Of a stretch of 64,000 nucleotides of DNA, positions 39,800-46,684 are shown one piece after another; the first letter of the stretch is position 1, and each line of letters opens with the position of its first letter. Origin of the DNA: a virus; the UHGV virus genome UHGV-0373904; one strand, 5' to 3'. A program made the translations under genes and the position numbers. The notes below the pieces were generated by a model. It made no database searches, had not been told where the DNA came from, and saw nothing but the letters and a program-made list of their open reading frames with translations.

Positions 39800-41215
39800 A
39801 TGAGCGAGTTATTTAAACATGCGCACCTTCATGCAGGTCGAACTGAAAATGGTGCTGTAAACCATACTTCATCAATGTCTGCTCTTGTAGATTTTTACAA
39901 AGCTGCTGGTTCAAGCCGTAGCAATGTAGAAATCTTACCAGACTTGTTCTACAAAGCTTTGCGTGAGGATGTTGATGTTGCAGTTCGTATTTTGCTTCAC
40001 ATGCGAGATGTACGAGAAGGTATGGGTGAGCGTAAAGCCTTCAGAACTGTTTTACTTCAAGCAATCGAAGACAAAGTTTTAGAGCCTACACAGGTTCTTC
40101 GTATTATGGATAAGATTGCAGAACTTGGTCGTTTTGATGACTTCAAAATCTTCGTAGGTACTCGTTTTGAGACAGATGCCTTTAAGCATTTAGAAGCAGC
40201 ATTACTAGACCATGAGACAGCAGGTTTAGCAGCCAAGTGGTTACCACGAGTAAAACCACGACACAAACAGTTTGTAAAACGTTTCTGCAAGTTTGCTAAC
40301 TTGAGTGAGAAAGAGTACCGCACACTGCTATCTGCACTGTCTGATACGGTTGAGCAAAAAATCTCTGCTAATGAGTTTGGTAAGATTGATTACAGCAAGA
40401 TTCCTTCACTTGCTGCTGCACGTTACCAAAAACTGTTTAACCGTAAAGATGGAGAGCGCTACAAAGCTTACATCGAGTCCTTATCAAAGGGTGAGACTAA
40501 GATTAATGCTGGTGCTGTTTACCCATACGATGTGATTAAATCTGTTAAGTATGGTAATGCAGATGTTGCTAATGAGCAGTGGAAAGCACTACCAAACTGG
40601 ATGGCAGAGGGTGAAAACATTCTATGTATGTCTGATGTTTCAAGTTCAATGTCTTGGGTGAATTTTGGTTCAATTACTGCTCTTGATATTGGTGTTTCAC
40701 TTGCATTGTATGTAGCAGAACGTAATACAGGTTGCTTTAAGAATGAGTTGATGGTTTATTCAACAAACCCTCACTTCATTGAACTGAGTGGTGATTTACG
40801 AAACCGTCATCGTCAGGTAATGCGTCATGTTGAATACGGTTCAACTAACTTACAAGCAGCTTTTGACCGCATTCTTGAGACAGGTAAGAGAAACAACTTG
40901 ACTCAGAAAGATATGCCAAGTAAGCTTATCATCTTCTCTGATATGGAGTTCAATCAGGTTGACGGTGCAAATGGTCGTACAAACTTTGAAGCAATTCGTA
41001 GTAAGTACAAAAAAGCTGGATACGAAATGCCACAACTGGTATTCTGGTACTTAGCAAACCGTAGTGGTACTTGCGAAGTATCTGTTAAGGATAACGGTGT
41101 AGCAATGGTATCAGGGTTCTCTCCAGCCACTTTAAAAGCTCTTCTTGGTGGTGAGAAGTTTGACCCAATCAGCGTAATGCTCAAAGCAGTAATGATTGAC
41201 CGTTACATCTGGTAA
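39800..41215 (+). CDS. vWA/MIDAS-domain protein with Ro60 (TROVE)-like organisation
   Basis: 471 aa; helical N-terminal ~270 aa then C-terminal vWA with MIDAS CMSDVSSSM ... IIFSDME ... VSGFSPATLKAL, paralleling Ro60 LAVDVSASM ... IVFTDNE ... CGFDTGALDVI. Confidence 0.4.
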   Translation: MSELFKHAHLHAGRTENGAVNHTSSMSALVDFYKAAGSSRSNVEILPDLFYKALREDVDVAVRILLHMRDVREGMGERKAFRTVLLQAIEDKVLEPTQVLRIMDKIAELGRFDDFKIFVGTRFETDAFKHLEAALLDHETAGLAAKWLPRVKPRHKQFVKRFCKFANLSEKEYRTLLSALSDTVEQKISANEFGKIDYSKIPSLAAARYQKLFNRKDGERYKAYIESLSKGETKINAGAVYPYDVIKSVKYGNADVANEQWKALPNWMAEGENILCMSDVSSSMSWVNFGSITALDIGVSLALYVAERNTGCFKNELMVYSTNPHFIELSGDLRNRHRQVMRHVEYGSTNLQAAFDRILETGKRNNLTQKDMPSKLIIFSDMEFNQVDGANGRTNFEAIRSKYKKAGYEMPQLVFWYLANRSGTCEVSVKDNGVAMVSGFSPATLKALLGGEKFDPISVMLKAVMIDRYIW

Positions 41216-41232
41216 AAAGTTTTAAAAAGGGT

Positions 41233-41262
41233 ATTGACAATGTGTTTAATACCCTTTAATAT
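41233..41262 (+). promoter_or_regulatory. sigma70-like promoter candidate embedded in an inverted repeat
   Basis: AAAGGGTATTGACA-N17-TAATAT; -35 flanked by AAAGGGTATT / AATACCCTTT; second TTGACA at ~41326. Confidence 0.45.
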
Positions 41263-41380
41263 GTTCTACATAGAAACGAAATGAGAGCTTTTCTAAGATA
41301 CTGAAAAATATTTTAAAAAAGTTCTTGACAACCACTAAAAAATAATGTTAAAGTGGTTACATAGAGTTTGAAAAGTTTAT

Positions 41381-41457
41381 CTCTGTTTAGCTCAGCTTGG
41401 TAGAGCGTTCCGTTTGGGGCGGTAAGGCCGGAGGTTCAAGTCCTCCAACAGAGACCA
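41381..41457 (+). tRNA. tRNA-Pro(TGG)
   Basis: manual cloverleaf: acceptor CTCTGTT/AACAGAG, D-arm GCTCAGCTTGGTAGAGC, anticodon loop TTTGGGG, T-loop TTCAAGT, 3' CCA. Confidence 0.75.
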
Positions 41458-41464
41458 AATTAAT

Positions 41465-41542
41465 GTTCCAGTAGACAAAATGGTAAAGTCACCACTCTTT
41501 CAAAGTGGATATCTGAGGGTTCAAATCCCTTCTGGAACGCCA
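41465..41542 (+). tRNA. tRNA-Glu(TTC)
   Basis: acceptor GTTCCAG/CTGGAAC, anticodon stem CCACT/AGTGG, loop CTTTCAA, T-loop TTCAAAT, CCA. Confidence 0.7.
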
Positions 41543-41549
41543 GTTTTGA

Positions 41550-41622
41550 CAGAAGACCAATTACAGCAAACTTAATCTTATTCATCTGAAGGTAAATCGG
41601 ACAAAGAAGAGATTTGGTCTGG
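41550..41622 (+). repeat. inverted-repeat-bounded element E1 (CAGAAGACC ... GGTCTGG)
   Basis: 5' CAGAAGACCAATTACAGCAA and 3' TTGGTCTGG; AGACCAA/TTGGTCT can pair. Confidence 0.55.
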
Positions 41623-41633
41623 TCATTAAGAAT

Positions 41634-41710
41634 TGCGGGTATAGAGAAAGGGCGTCTCACATGTCTCATTAGCATGGTATCGGCAGGTTCGACTCCTGCA
41701 CCCGCCTCCA
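41634..41710 (+). tRNA. tRNA(CAT) Met/Ile2-type, atypical
   Basis: anticodon stem CATGT/GCATG, loop CTCATTA, T-arm GCAGG-TTCGACT-CCTGC, CCA; position 1:72 unpaired (T/C) and an extra nucleotide before the D stem. Confidence 0.55.
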
Positions 41711-41716
41711 ATTTTG

Positions 41717-41775
41717 CAGAAGACCGTATTCAGCAACAAAATACTTTTGCGGATAAAAGAAAAAACACGGTCTGG
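41717..41775 (+). repeat. inverted-repeat-bounded element E2
   Basis: 5' CAGAAGACCGTATTCAGCAA and 3' ACGGTCTGG. Confidence 0.55.
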
Positions 41776-41786
41776 CAATGTATTAA

Positions 41787-41863
41787 GGTTAGGAAGCACA
41801 TAAGGTATGTGCGGTCGCCTGTTAAGCGAATGGCACAGGGTTCGAATCCCTGACTAACCGCCA
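41787..41863 (+). tRNA. tRNA-Asn(GTT)
   Basis: acceptor GGTTAGG/ACTAACC, loop CTGTTAA, T-arm CAGGG-TTCGAAT-CCCTG, CCA. Confidence 0.7.
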
Positions 41864-45408: not shown

Positions 45409-45410
45409 AT

Positions 45411-45489
45411 GCTCCATTACTCCAATTGGCAGAGAGGCCAGACTTAAAATCTGTGTTATGTATCGGTTCGAATCCGATATGGAGTACCA
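45411..45489 (+). tRNA. tRNA with Leu anticodon (TAA), short variable arm
   Basis: acceptor GCTCCAT/ATGGAGT, loop CTTAAAA, T-arm ATCGG-TTCGAAT-CCGAT, discriminator A, CCA; 79 nt. Confidence 0.55.
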
Positions 45490-45494
45490 AATTT

Positions 45495-45570
45495 AGCGGT
45501 ATAGCATAACTGGCAATGCAACAGTCTCTGAAGCTGTCCTATTAAGGTTCAAATCCTTATGCCGCTGCCA
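45495..45570 (+). tRNA. tRNA-Gln(CTG)
   Basis: acceptor AGCGGTA/TGCCGCT, anticodon stem ACAGT/GCTGT, loop CTCTGAA, T-arm TAAGG-TTCAAAT-CCTTA, discriminator G, CCA. Confidence 0.65.
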
Positions 45571-45601
45571 CTTCTAAGGATTCTTACGAGAGTCCTTAAA
45601 T

Positions 45602-45677
45602 GTGGCCTTATCATAAAAGGTAATGACCCATGCTGTGAACATGGTCTATACGGGTTCAAATCCCGTAGGTCACCCCA
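45602..45677 (+). tRNA. tRNA-His(GTG)
   Basis: acceptor GTGGCCT/AGGTCAC, anticodon stem CCATG/CATGG, loop CTGTGAA, T-arm ACGGG-TTCAAAT-CCCGT, discriminator C, CCA. Confidence 0.7.
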
Positions 45678-45682
45678 ATTTA

Positions 45683-45760
45683 TAGTCCAAGTAGCTTATA
45701 TGGTTAAAGCGCGTGTCTGAAAAACATGAGAAGAGGGTTCAAATCCCACTGGACTACCAA
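45683..45760 (+). tRNA. tRNA-Phe(GAA)
   Basis: perfect acceptor TAGTCCA/TGGACTA, anticodon stem CGTGT/ACATG, loop CTGAAAA, T-loop TTCAAAT, CCA. Confidence 0.7.
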
Positions 45761-45775
45761 TTTCAAAGGTGCTTA

Positions 45776-46510
45776 ATGAAAGAGATGACAGAACAAGGTA
45801 AGGAGATTTTTAATCTCTTAAAAACTGGTAAAGGGTTTTCTAACCCCCTTATTACTGGTGCAGCAGTTCTCGGTGGAACCGTAGCTGCCTCTACATCACT
45901 TGTAAGCTCTATTAGCTCTGTATCAGACCCTACAGTAAAGGATAAGCTTGTTGCTGCTGGACTTACAACAGTTCTGCTTAACAGCTTTACCACGAGTCTG
46001 ACAAGCACTACATCAACTACCAAAACACTAACAGATTACGGTCAAAAGTCCATTGATGAGTTTTCATCACGTATGCAGGTAGCAAAAGGTTACTCTAATG
46101 TTATGGGTGCAGCAGGTGAACAAGTTGGCTGTACACCGTTTAGTGGTATTATGGGCGTTGCTACAGAATATGGTCAAAAAGCTATTGACACAATTAACAG
46201 TGCACTAGATGTCGTTAATGATGTATTAAGTGACTTACAAGATGCTATTGACAAAGGTCTTGATACTATTTCTGATTTAGCTAACCAAGCTGTTAGTAAG
46301 ATTAATGAAGGTATTTCGAAGATTACAGCTTATGCAGATGAAGTTGTGCAGATGATTGAAGAAGAAGCTGCTCTTATTGCAGAGTACCTTAAAACGAATA
46401 TCAATGGGTTCTTAGCAGGTATCTTACCAGACTGGTTTGATGATGCTTGTAAAACTGGTGTGATTGACACTATTGCAACACCAGAAATGAAGAACGCATT
46501 ACAGAAATAA
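45776..46510 (+). CDS. hypothetical Ser/Thr-rich protein
   Basis: track ORF starts at GTG 45713 inside tRNA-Phe; ATG 45776 is the first start downstream of the tRNA. Confidence 0.45.
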   Translation: MKEMTEQGKEIFNLLKTGKGFSNPLITGAAVLGGTVAASTSLVSSISSVSDPTVKDKLVAAGLTTVLLNSFTTSLTSTTSTTKTLTDYGQKSIDEFSSRMQVAKGYSNVMGAAGEQVGCTPFSGIMGVATEYGQKAIDTINSALDVVNDVLSDLQDAIDKGLDTISDLANQAVSKINEGISKITAYADEVVQMIEEEAALIAEYLKTNINGFLAGILPDWFDDACKTGVIDTIATPEMKNALQK

Positions 46511-46511
46511 T

Positions 46512-46604
46512 GGAAGATTAACCCTAAAAGGTAAGGGAGCAGTTTGCTAAACTGCCAGTAGCTGAGAAATCGGTGTACCAGTTCAAGTCTGGTATCTTCC
46601 TCCA
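46512..46604 (+). tRNA. tRNA-Ser(GCT), long variable arm
   Basis: acceptor GGAAGAT/ATCTTCC, anticodon stem GCAGT/ACTGC, loop TTGCTAA, long variable arm, T-arm ACCAG-TTCAAGT-CTGGT, CCA. Confidence 0.7.
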
Positions 46605-46608
46605 ATTT

Positions 46609-46684
46609 GAATCCGTGACAGAAATGGCTATGTGCCTGTCTGCAAAACAGGTTTATAAGGGTTCGAGTCCCTTCGGATTCTCCA
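46609..46684 (+). tRNA. tRNA-Cys(GCA)
   Basis: acceptor GAATCCG/CGGATTC, anticodon stem CCTGT/ACAGG, loop CTGCAAA, T-arm AAGGG-TTCGAGT-CCCTT, CCA. Confidence 0.7.

What the first reader, a model, noticed from the sequence alone, without database searches (positions are those of the whole stretch)
39800..46684. Ro60-like vWA protein encoded directly upstream of the tRNA array
The 471-aa protein has a helical N-terminal domain and a C-terminal vWA domain whose MIDAS segments parallel Ro60 (DVSSSM vs DVSASM; FSDME vs FTDNE; GFSPATLKAL vs GFDTGALDVI). In bacteria and some phages Ro60 orthologs are encoded next to tRNA-like Y RNAs. Here the gene is followed within 170 nt by promoters and about 27 tRNAs plus non-tRNA structured elements, suggesting an RNA-binding or RNA quality-control role with Y-RNA-like partners.
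Basis: partly seen in the sequence, partly recalled or inferred. Interest (0 to 1): 0.65.

Follow-up and report, generated by a model that had tools for sequence, protein, structure and literature searches.

The report
Phage Ro60-like protein and partner RNAs
A Felix O1-type phage gene encodes a protein shaped like the RNA-binding autoantigen Ro60 (already reported for its near-identical ortholog), and its conserved genomic partner appears to be a previously unannotated family of small structured RNAs hidden between the tRNA genes, not the tRNAs themselves.

Summary

The new result is the candidate RNA partner. Four unannotated elements (E1-E4, 41547-42325) share a closing helix 5'-AG...CU-G-3' and a UWCAGCAA motif. 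E4 also holds a circularly permuted tRNA-like domain (V, T-arm, capped acceptor, D-arm), as in bacterial YrlA Y RNAs. A covariance model finds this element on the gene's strand only. It is present in 58 of 75 distant homolog loci and lies within 500 nt of the gene in 45, including 27 of 43 loci with no tRNAs. The short form closely resembles Dictyostelium Class I RNAs, below Rfam's threshold. Physical binding is inferred, not shown, and gp130 alone suffices against Ppl.

The parts
39731..39760 (+). sigma-70-like site upstream of the gene (TTGACA-18-TAAAGT)
   Evidence: Consensus scan only; not tested.
39800..41215 (+). Gene for a 471-aa Ro60-fold protein (helical ring domain, about residues 1-265, plus a C-terminal vWA domain with an intact MIDAS). 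Pfam DUF2828 + DUF7788, PHROG 850. Ortholog of Bas63 gp130.
41226..41257 (+). 12-bp hairpin immediately after the stop codon (terminator-like; overlaps a -35-like hexamer)
   Evidence: consensus scan only.
41325..41354 (+). sigma-70-like site (TTGACA-18-TAAAGT, with TG) just upstream of the first tRNA; a second site lies at 41234-41262
   Evidence: consensus scan only.
41381..46684 (+). Array of 26 tRNA genes, all on the + strand, interrupted by E1-E4, other gaps and three small ORFs
41547..41625 (+). E1, short element between tRNA-Glu and tRNA-Met: outer stem TGAC/GTCA, AGA/G internal loop, helix AGACCAA/TTGGTCT, TTACAGCAA motif (core 41554-41621)
   Evidence: MFE fold; model R1 44.6 bits, E 2.6e-6; RF01414 19.7 bits.
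41714..41778 (+). E2, short element between tRNA-Met and tRNA-Asn: outer stem TTGC/GCAA (TTAC/GTAA in relatives), helix AGACCGT/ACGGTCT, ATTCAGCAA (core 41721-41774)
   Evidence: R1 48.5 bits, E 3.5e-7; RF01414 22.0 bits.
42100..42181 (+). E3, short element after tRNA-Asp: outer stem GAGC/GCTC, helix AGACCAA/TTGGTCT, ATACAGCAA (core 42107-42177)
   Evidence: R1 39.1 bits, E 4.5e-5.
42189..42325 (+). E4, long YrlA-like element: outer stem TTAC/GTAA, helix AGACCGTT/AACGGTCT, TTACAGCAA, then a V hairpin and a permuted tRNA-like body (core 42196-42321)
   Evidence: MFE fold; permuted-module scan; ARAGORN calls it a tRNA only after in-silico re-permutation. It does not hit Rfam YrlA at E<=10.
42247..42263 (+). 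E4 T-arm: GAAGG-TTCGATT-CCTTC
42264..42281 (+). E4 capped acceptor-like hairpin ACTCGGC-AGAT-GTCGAGT (7 bp). Replaced by unrelated but pairing sequences in Moogle/HP1 and in SUSP2/Sf15/ESh21.
42282..42298 (+). E4 U8-N9 equivalent (TG) and D-arm GTGT-AATGGTA-GCAC (A14, G18G19 and A21 equivalents present)
43336..43410 (+).
   Evidence: D6, D11.

Best explanation
The gene encodes a divergent Ro60-type protein: a helical ring plus a vWA/MIDAS domain, of the very large DUF2828/DUF7788 family. It is the ortholog of Bas63 gp130. Its conserved genomic partner is a family of small RNAs encoded on the same strand, usually within a few hundred nucleotides. These RNAs are defined by (i) a closing helix that always begins 5'-AG and ends CU-3', followed by an unpaired G, and (ii) a single-stranded UWCAGCAA motif starting exactly 10 nt after the A of AG. 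The interior is variable.

The window has four copies (E1-E4) packed between the first tRNAs of the array. The flanking tRNA-processing enzymes (RNase P and the 3' processing enzymes) would therefore release them as discrete RNAs of about 65-135 nt (inferred). E4 carries a circularly permuted tRNA-like body in the V-T-AS-D order described for bacterial YrlA Y RNAs.

By analogy with Ro60/Rsr-Y RNA particles, including the phage phiLo Ro60-Yrl-PNPase complex, I infer the following. The protein binds the AG/CUG helix plus CAGCAA module. The variable module (plain linker or tRNA mimic) then recruits or decoys host RNA-handling factors, helping the phage against host RNA- or nucleic-acid-directed defences.

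Shown here: the fold, the RNA family, its structure and its genomic linkage. Shown by others: the anti-Ppl phenotype of the ortholog. Inferred: RNA-protein binding, processing and the downstream mechanism.
For: Protein:
- AF2 model pLDDT 88.5.
- Foldseek: all 11 PDB hits with E<=1e-3 are Ro60/TROVE proteins, full length, best E 2.8e-8 and TM 0.66.
- MIDAS residues invariant.
- 461/471 identical to Bas63 gp130, which counters Ppl.

RNA in the window:
- The motif AGAAGACC.{2,6}CAGCAA occurs 4 times on the + strand within 650 nt and nowhere else in 64 kb.
- MFE folds give the same helix, internal loop and helix in all four.
- All four are conserved in order in Felixounavirus, Suspvirus and Mooglevirus, with compensatory changes (E2 outer stem TTGC/GCAA to TTAC/GTAA; three unrelated E4 acceptor hairpins).

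RNA in distant loci (38-47% protein identity):
- Descriptor hits: 155 on the + strand, 21 on the - strand, 4-12 in shuffles.
- 53 of 96 hits lie in the 6.5% of flank within 500 nt of the gene, p=3e-37.
- The AG-to-CAGCA spacing is 10 nt in 53/55 although 7-14 was allowed.
- Non-circular test: 80 of 173 sequence-only anchors have an exact 7-nt reverse complement downstream, and 78 of these are followed by G; controls give 1-5, and the - strand 0/57.
- Model R1: 91 hits at E<=1 in 1.29 Mb, all on the + strand. 58/75 loci are hit, 45 within 500 nt of the gene, including 27 of 43 loci with no tRNA.
- L089 has the same layout: gene, then two elements, then a tRNA array.

tRNA mimicry:
- Permuted T/AS/D modules: 36 on the + strand, 1 on the - strand.
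- 7/8 are called tRNA after re-permutation, against 0/400 shuffles, 0/160 rotations and 0/8 native sequences.
- Long elements in other phages hit Rfam YrlA over the full model at E 4.6e-5 to 6e-3.

Precedent: phage phiLo Ro60 binds two adjacent Y-like RNAs and host PNPase; bacterial YrlA architecture.
Against: - No binding, expression or processing data exist for E1-E4. Everything about the RNP is inferred from synteny and analogy.
- gp130 expressed alone from a plasmid or from the T7 genome rescues T7 on a Ppl host, and even raises plating above the no-defence control. So the one demonstrated activity does not need the phage RNAs, unless host RNAs substitute.
- The protein has no significant sequence match to TROVE.
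- E4 does not match Rfam YrlA or Y_RNA at E<=10, and the canonical Ro60-binding GNCGAA motif is not conserved in these elements.
- 17 of 75 distant loci show no element with the present model, though several have very short flanks.
- Many upstream copies end exactly at the gene's Shine-Dalgarno sequence, which fits a cis-acting leader as well as a separate sRNA.
- The 100% pairing in the seed alignment was partly imposed by the descriptor.
Confidence: 0.65

Rival explanations
1. The protein works alone as a protein-level inhibitor, for example using its vWA/MIDAS face to bind and block the Ppl ATPase-PHP nuclease or another host factor. The neighbouring RNA elements are functionally unrelated to it. 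They might be spacers or processing signals of the tRNA operon that happen to share the same accessory region.
For: gp130 alone, from a plasmid or inserted in T7, restores plaquing on a Ppl host. vWA/MIDAS domains are classic protein-protein interaction modules, and vWA-only structures are the next-best fold matches. Protein neighbours of homologs are not conserved, so the gene behaves as a stand-alone cassette.
Against: The element sits next to the gene in phages with 38-47% protein identity and otherwise unrelated neighbourhoods, including 27 of 43 loci without any tRNA, always on the same strand. That is hard to explain without a functional link. The full Ro60 ring, not only the vWA domain, is conserved, with many invariant Arg/Lys residues in the helical domain. 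Host RNAs could substitute in the T7 experiment.
Confidence: 0.2
2. The elements are cis-acting parts of the transcripts rather than free Y-like sRNAs. They could be leaders or trailers that the protein binds to autoregulate its own translation, or that stabilise or direct processing of the polycistronic gene-tRNA precursor.
For: Many upstream copies end directly at the Shine-Dalgarno sequence of the gene (...CCTGaaggag...). The elements are always co-oriented and usually within 100-500 nt. In the window they are embedded in the tRNA precursor.
Against: There are often several tandem copies, lying both upstream (24) and downstream (31) of the gene. In the window they follow a terminator-like hairpin and two promoter-like sites, so they are not obviously part of the gene's mRNA. 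Some carry elaborate tRNA-like bodies that serve no obvious cis role. Canonical Y RNAs are likewise co-transcribed with rsr and then processed.
Confidence: 0.1
3. E1-E4 are decayed or rearranged tRNA genes, or a selfish repeat spreading in tRNA regions, with no dedicated function.
For: They lie in a tRNA array. E4 contains T-arm, D-arm and acceptor-like parts. Phage tRNA arrays commonly hold pseudo-tRNAs, for example 43336-43410.
Against: The defining AG/CUG helix plus CAGCAA module is not a tRNA feature. It is invariant across very distant phages while the helix sequence covaries. It occurs in loci with no tRNAs and is found only on the gene's strand. The permuted order T-AS-D recurs with intact tertiary-contact nucleotides and a covarying capped acceptor, which indicates selection.
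Confidence: 0.05

Closest known systems
Bas63 (Escherichia phage JohannRWettstein) gp130, reported in the PhageMaP preprint (10.1101/2024.10.10.617714)
   Different: In the passages retrieved, no specific RNA partner is named; the authors suggest that annotated tRNA genes might be Y RNAs. Here the candidates are four unannotated inter-tRNA elements. In the Bas63 record, E4 is overlapped by small opposite-strand ORFs bas63_0137/0138.
Ro60/Rsr (TROVE + vWA) with Y RNAs, including bacterial Rsr-YrlA/YrlB and Thermus phage phiLo Ro60-Yrl1/Yrl2-PNPase
   Same: Same two-domain ring fold. Intact MIDAS. Small RNAs encoded next to the gene on the same strand, in more than one copy. One class has a V-T-AS-D tRNA-like domain and another is a simple hairpin. 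Long elements of related phages hit Rfam YrlA at E down to 4.6e-5.
   Different: No detectable sequence similarity to TROVE, and the helical domain is shorter (about 265 residues). The presumed protein-binding module is different: an AG...CU-G helix plus UWCAGCAA instead of the bulged helix with GNCGAA. No element reaches Rfam's YrlA cutoff (69 bits), and E4 itself gives no hit at E<=10.
Dictyostelium Class I RNAs (Rfam RF01414; Kjellin et al. 2021, PMC7919456)
   Same: A terminal covarying stem of about 6-7 bp with an invariant 5' G paired to the C of a 3' CUG. The conserved motif (C)CUUACAGCAA lies immediately 3' of the 5' strand. The interior is variable and A-rich, and the length is about 60 nt. 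RF01414 is the top-scoring of 4227 Rfam families for both short elements searched on their own, and short elements from several unrelated phages score 19.7-30.8 bits against it.
   Different: All scores are below Rfam's 41.5-bit cutoff. The spacer between the conserved G and CAGCAA is one nucleotide shorter in phages. There is no DUSE promoter. The hosts are bacteria. The only named Class I RNA-binding protein is the RRM protein Rnp1A. Convergence cannot be excluded.
Pfam DUF2828 (PF11443) + DUF7788 (PF25043); PHROG 850 'RNA-binding protein'
   Same: The protein is a clear member: 102.8 and 147.8 bits, above the cutoffs, and PHROG 850 at E 1.5e-183. The family is very large, with 8850 clusters at 50% identity at E<=1e-3. 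It also occurs in giant viruses of protists.
   Different: These are labels without a tested function. No paper retrieved for 'DUF2828' describes a function or an RNA partner.

Membership tests
Ro60 / TROVE protein family | Ring of HEAT-like helical repeats closed by a C-terminal vWA domain | tested here: met
Ro60 / TROVE protein family | Significant sequence match to the TROVE domain (Pfam PF05731) or to Ro60 sequences | tested here: not met
   No TROVE hit at E<=1 in Pfam. phmmer against the PDB finds nothing. A 35-sequence profile against the PDB gives Ro60 only at E 0.53, restricted to the MIDAS strand.
Ro60 / TROVE protein family | Complete MIDAS motif (DxSxS ... T ... D) in the vWA domain | tested here: met
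   D279, S281, S283, T349 and D381 are invariant in 35 homologs. DVSSSM aligns with Ro60 DVSASM.
Ro60 / TROVE protein family | Binds Y RNAs and/or misfolded RNAs | not testable with these tools
   Only genomic linkage to a candidate RNA family is shown.
Pfam DUF2828 + DUF7788 | Scores above Pfam gathering thresholds | tested here: met
   PF25043 147.8 bits (cutoff 27.1) and PF11443 102.8 bits (cutoff 29).
YrlA-type bacterial Y RNA (for E4) | Encoded close to, and on the same strand as, the Ro60-type gene | tested here: met
   E4 begins 974 nt downstream of the stop codon, on the + strand. Relatives lie within 60-1500 nt.
YrlA-type bacterial Y RNA (for E4) | tRNA-like domain in the order V, T-arm, closed acceptor-like stem-loop, D-arm, enclosed by a long 5'/3' stem | tested here: met
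   MFE fold. Explicit module scan: 36 on + against 1 on -. Re-permuted constructs are called tRNA in 7/8 cases, against 0 in 568 controls. Order as described in PMC4201824.
YrlA-type bacterial Y RNA (for E4) | Conserved GNCGAA(N)G motif in the Ro60-binding stem | tested here: not met
   The closing stem instead carries AG...CU-G and UWCAGCAA. The string GGCGAAG at 42244-42250 lies at the V/T junction, and the Moogle E4 ortholog has no CGAA there.
YrlA-type bacterial Y RNA (for E4) | Rfam RF02553 gathering score (69 bits) | tested here: not met
   No RF02553 hit for E4 at E<=10 or for its Moogle and SUSP2 orthologs. Long elements of other phages reach 28.7-38.9 bits, E down to 4.6e-5.
Metazoan-type Y RNA (Rfam Y_RNA) | Match to the Rfam model | tested here: not met
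   No hit at E<=1 over 39000-47200 or at E<=10 over 41540-42475.
Dictyostelium Class I RNA (for E1-E3) | Short covarying stem joining the 5' and 3' ends, with a conserved 5' G paired to the C of a 3' CUG(U) | tested here: met
   7-bp helix, 5 of 7 pairs covary, A-U and G-C terminal pairs and the following G are invariant. Non-circular support. Definition from PMC7919456.
Dictyostelium Class I RNA (for E1-E3) | 11-nt motif CCUUACAGCAA next to the 5' stem strand (U3, C6, C9, A10, A11 near-invariant) | tested here: inconclusive
   UWCAGCAA is present with CAGCA invariant. In a joint alignment with 7 Class I RNAs, CAGCAA is invariant. But the spacing to the conserved G is 1 nt shorter in phages.
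Dictyostelium Class I RNA (for E1-E3) | Rfam RF01414 gathering score (41.5 bits) | tested here: not met
   E1 19.7 and E2 22.0 bits. Other phages 24.3-30.8 bits. None at the gathering score in 145 kb.
Dictyostelium Class I RNA (for E1-E3) | DUSE promoter about 60 nt upstream; dictyostelid genome | tested here: not met
   The window is a Felixounavirus of enterobacteria. The elements lie inside a bacterial-type tRNA operon.
tRNA (for E4) | Recognised as a tRNA with an anticodon arm | tested here: not met
   Not called by ARAGORN in native order. The anticodon arm is replaced by the long AG/CAGCAA stem.

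The most novel reading that the evidence does not exclude
The phage 'AG-helix / UWCAGCAA / CU-G' RNAs and the Class I RNAs of dictyostelid amoebae are the same kind of RNA. They would be the cognate small-RNA partner of the DUF2828/TROVE-like branch of Ro60 proteins, shared between phages, giant viruses of protists and some eukaryotes.

If so, Class I RNAs would be Y-RNA-like cofactors of a Ro60-type ring protein. These RNAs have been known since 2004, are abundant and developmentally regulated, and are described as unique to Dictyostelia, with no known molecular function. 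A candidate protein is the abundant D. discoideum TROVE-domain protein DDB_G0281913, whose level falls during development. The huge DUF2828 family would then acquire a defined RNA ligand.
Probability: 0.3. Interest if true: 0.9.

Novelty: new variant of a known kind. Interest (0 to 1): 0.7.

Why it matters
DUF2828/DUF7788 is a very large viral protein family: 8850 clusters at 50% identity, found in phages and in giant viruses. Its only demonstrated activity is counter-defence against Ppl.

Assigning it a specific, conserved RNA partner turns a 'Ro60-like by structure' remark into a testable RNP model with defined binding-site mutations (AG/CU pairs, the unpaired G, CAGCAA). It also shows that Ro60-type rings can use an RNA-recognition module different from the classic Y RNA helix while keeping the YrlA-style tRNA mimic.

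There are practical consequences as well. The elements are unannotated in hundreds of Felix O1-like genomes used in typing and therapy, and are sometimes overwritten by spurious ORFs. If the resemblance to Dictyostelium Class I RNAs reflects common ancestry or a common ligand, it would offer the first concrete lead to their molecular function.

Tried and rejected
- **Sequence-level homology to Ro60.** Pfam TROVE/VWA, phmmer and a profile search of the PDB were all non-significant. NCBIfam has no model.
- **Known RNA families for the array gaps.** There is no Y_RNA or YrlA hit in the window.
- **tRNA array as the conserved partner.** Rejected as the primary link. Only about 16 of 75 distant loci have a tRNA within 1 kb and 43 have none in the flanks, whereas the RNA element is adjacent in most.
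- **Conserved protein neighbours** (RtcB, PNPase, RNA ligase and the like). None were found.
- **The canonical GNCGAA Ro60-binding motif.** A GGCGAAG string in E4 lies at the V/T junction, and the Moogle E4 ortholog lacks CGAA there. I treat it as chance.
- **By-eye similarity of the UUGGUC/GACCAA helix in E1/E3 to the Xenopus Y3 stem.** The orientation relative to the loop appeared inverted. This was a comparison from memory and was not pursued.
- **Permuted functional tRNA genes.** Rejected, because there is no anticodon arm.
- **Dictyostelium link.** The AFDB libraries were unavailable. The 2011 DdR-21 pull-down paper is not held. The proteome supplement shows a TROVE-domain protein but no 'DUF2828' string, and those files are truncated. 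So the presence of a DUF2828 gene in dictyostelids remains untested.
- **PhageMaP data on bas63_0137/0138 (overlapping E4).** Not mentioned in the main text.
- **HH-type profile comparison with a Ro60 alignment.** Not run, because the fold evidence was already decisive.

Full report
**What is there.** The window is a Felix O1-like myovirus (Felixounavirus). The region 39300-47200 matches 370 phage records, the best at 96.9% identity. ORF 39800-41215 (+) encodes 471 aa. After 165 nt containing a hairpin and two sigma-70-like sites, 26 tRNA genes follow on the same strand up to 46684. There is also one tRNA-like sequence at 43336-43410.

**The protein.** Pfam assigns DUF2828 (PF11443) and DUF7788 (PF25043), with no TROVE or VWA hit at E<=1. 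PHROG 850 is labelled 'RNA-binding protein', and NCBIfam has nothing. Sequence searches of the PDB are not significant. With a 35-sequence profile, Ro60 appears only at E 0.53, over the MIDAS strand, where DVSSSM aligns with DVSASM.

**Prior art.** The protein is 461/471 identical to Bas63 gp130, which occupies the same position upstream of tRNA-Pro. The PhageMaP preprint makes several statements about gp130:
- It is structurally similar to Ro60.
- It lies directly upstream of the tRNA genes.
- Its deletion sensitises the phage to the Ppl defence system.

The preprint also shows that gp130 alone, from a plasmid or inserted into T7, rescues T7 on a Ppl host. A canonical phage Ro60 (phiLo) has been shown to bind two adjacent Y-like RNAs and host PNPase.

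**The RNA partner in the window (the new part).** Between the first tRNAs lie four repeats:

| Element | Span | Core |
|---|---|---|
| E1 | 41547-41625 | 41554-41621 |
| E2 | 41714-41778 | 41721-41774 |
| E3 | 42100-42181 | 42107-42177 |
| E4 | 42189-42325 | 42196-42321 |

The composite motif AGAAGACC.{2,6}CAGCAA occurs four times on the + strand here and nowhere else in 64 kb. ViennaRNA folds all four the same way: a 4-bp outer stem, an AGA/G internal loop and a 7-8-bp helix AGACC.../...GGUCU. The single-stranded UWCAGCAA motif follows directly after the 5' strand.

E4's interior forms four parts:
- a V hairpin
- a T-arm (GAAGG-TTCGATT-CCTTC)
- a 7-bp capped acceptor-like hairpin
- a D-arm with U8, A14, G18G19 and A21 equivalents

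This is the V-T-AS-D order described for bacterial YrlA Y RNAs.

All four elements are conserved in order, on the + strand only, in Felixounavirus, Suspvirus and Mooglevirus. There are compensatory changes: the E2 outer stem switches between TTGC/GCAA and TTAC/GTAA, and the E4 acceptor hairpin has three unrelated sequences that all pair. E4 is unannotated in almost all of 253 records, or is overlapped by small ORFs.

**Linkage beyond this phage.** I fetched 75 loci encoding homologs at 38-47% identity.
- **tRNAs.** They occur in the flanks of fewer than half of the loci, and within 1 kb in about 16. They are always co-oriented with the gene.
- **Descriptor.** The pattern 'AG-helix, CAGCA, complementary strand ending CU, then G' gives 155 hits on the gene's strand, 21 on the other strand and 4-12 in shuffles. 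53 of 96 hits fall in the 6.5% of flank within 500 nt of the gene (p=3e-37).
- **Spacing.** The AG-to-CAGCA distance is 10 nt in 53/55, although the descriptor allowed 7-14.
- **Non-circular test.** Because the descriptor imposes pairing, I anchored on sequence alone. 80 of 173 anchors have an exact 7-nt reverse complement downstream, and 78 of these are followed by G. Control 7-mers give 1-5, and the opposite strand gives 0/57.
- **Covariance model.** Model R1 was built from 26 short elements: 5 of 7 pairs covary, and the A-U and G-C terminal pairs, the following G and CAGCA are invariant. It finds 91 matches at E<=1 in 1.29 Mb, all on the gene's strand. They cover 58/75 loci, 45 within 500 nt and 27 within 100 nt of the gene. 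This includes 27 of the 43 loci that have no tRNA at all.
- **Neighbours.** Protein neighbours are not conserved.
- **Independent locus.** L089 (51% identity) repeats the window's layout: gene, two elements, then a 14-tRNA array.

The constant companion of this gene is therefore the RNA element. The tRNA array is a frequent but secondary neighbour.

**tRNA mimicry.** The permuted T-arm/capped-acceptor/D-arm module occurs 36 times on the gene's strand and once on the other strand. I re-permuted eight elements from the window and from distant phages in silico, opening the acceptor cap and capping the long stem. ARAGORN then of them as full-span tRNAs, with the AG/CAGCAA stem in place of the anticodon arm. 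It/400 shuffles, 0/160 random rotations and 0/8 native sequences. Rfam's YrlA model hits long elements of other phages over its full length: L070 at 38.9 bits (E 4.6e-5), L019 at 34.8 bits and L076 at 31.4 bits. All are below the curated 69 bits, and E4 itself gives no hit. The canonical GNCGAA motif is not conserved in these elements.

**An unexpected resemblance.** For both short elements that I searched on their own, the best of the 4227 Rfam families is RF01414, Dictyostelium Class I RNA. Short elements from several unrelated phages score 19.7-30.8 bits against it as full-model matches. In 67 kb searched on both strands, 3 of only 11 hits at E<=10 are RF01414, each starting 27-35 nt after the gene's end.

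Published features of Class I RNAs match the phage consensus aAaAAGAaUgcuUuCAGCAA...A-rich...gcAuUCUGuuAA:
- an AAG start
- a covarying 6-bp stem whose 5' G pairs with the C of a 3' CUGU
- the motif CCUUACAGCAA
- a variable interior
- a length of about 60 nt

A joint alignment with seven curated Class I RNAs keeps CAGCAA and the terminal UG invariant. For calibration, the authors' own model gave only about 7-10 candidates at >=25 bits in whole 100-135 Mb outgroup genomes.

Against membership: every score is below Rfam's 41.5 bits, the spacer is one nucleotide shorter, and the only named Class I binder is an RRM protein. D. discoideum does have an abundant TROVE-domain protein whose level falls in development. 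I could not test whether dictyostelids encode DUF2828. I therefore report this as the most novel reading that the evidence does not exclude, not as a finding.

**Mechanism and its limits.** The best-supported model is a Ro60-Y RNA-like particle. The ring protein would bind the AG/CU-G helix plus CAGCAA module of RNAs that are cut out of the tRNA precursor. The variable module, a tRNA mimic in E4, would engage host RNA-handling or defence factors.

Only the fold, the RNA family and the synteny are shown here. Binding, processing and function are inferred. The published T7 rescue by gp130 alone shows that the anti-Ppl activity does not require the phage RNAs. This keeps a protein-only mechanism alive as the main rival. 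The frequent placement of an element directly in front of the gene's ribosome-binding site keeps a cis-regulatory reading alive too.

**Verdict.**
- The added value is the identification and comparative validation of the likely RNA partner family. This is a new variant of the Ro60/Y RNA theme, with an intriguing and testable link to an orphan eukaryotic RNA class.

Noticed in passing
window 43336-43410 (+): tRNA-like sequence with acceptor GGGACG/CGTCCC, a good T-arm and a 9-nt anticodon-type loop containing CCA. ARAGORN does not call it, and Rfam gives only tRNA-Sec at 23 bits. It may be a pseudo-tRNA or an unusual tRNA-Trp.
   Followed up: partly
window 42780-43114 (+); L083 3960-4146: The 335-nt gap after tRNA-Ile holds the best promoter-like site of the region (42795-42823, TTGACA-17-TATAGT). 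It gives weak tmRNA-type Rfam hits (24.5 bits, E 0.068), and the Moogle ortholog gives 29.8 bits (E 0.028). This may be a degenerate or divergent tmRNA-like RNA.
   Followed up: no
L046 12619-13092; L019 8605-9054: Bona fide phage-encoded tmRNAs (70.9 and 75.4 bits, above Rfam's cutoff) lie 1-3 kb downstream of the DUF2828 gene in two unrelated loci.
   Followed up: no
window 42426-42443 (+): Mini hairpin AGAC-CUUAAGCAA-GUCU-G just downstream of E4. It looks like a stripped or degenerate fifth copy of the element.
   Followed up: no
window 44528-44770, 44767-45324, 45713-46510 (+): Three protein-coding ORFs are embedded in the tRNA array. All fall in PHROGs of unknown function. Other records call the 185-aa one 'holin' and the ~244-aa one 'predicted receptor-binding protein', without evidence seen here.
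   Followed up: partly
L082 (Bas63, MZ501086.1) 4022-4296, - strand: Small annotated ORFs bas63_0137 and bas63_0138 on the opposite strand lie at E4 (0137 overlaps it; 0138 begins just after it). They are probably spurious calls over an RNA gene. Similar 'hypothetical protein' calls occur in other records.
   Followed up: partly
GU169904.1 'Staphylococcus phage SA1' 58759-58907: A record labelled as a Staphylococcus phage contains a 98.7% copy of E4. That is Felix O1-like enterobacterial phage DNA, so the record is likely chimeric or contaminated.
   Followed up: no
L016 15696-15922 (+): A group I intron (71.5 bits, above cutoff) lies about 4.3 kb downstream of the DUF2828 gene in an uncultured phage contig.
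   Followed up: no
L040 9734-9834 and 9849-9936; L034/L049/L059/L062/L073 (~160-nt elements): The AG/CAGCAA closing module also encloses other cargo. Examples are a near-complete tRNA body lacking its own acceptor stem, a lone T-arm, and a conserved structured insert of about 120 nt shared by five loci. The interior therefore seems to be a swappable module.
   Followed up: no
window 39347-39718 (+): A 123-aa DUF5681 protein (N-terminal GNPSGRPKG motif; PHROG 4114, unknown function) directly precedes the gene throughout the Ounavirinae. It was not examined in the distant loci.
   Followed up: no
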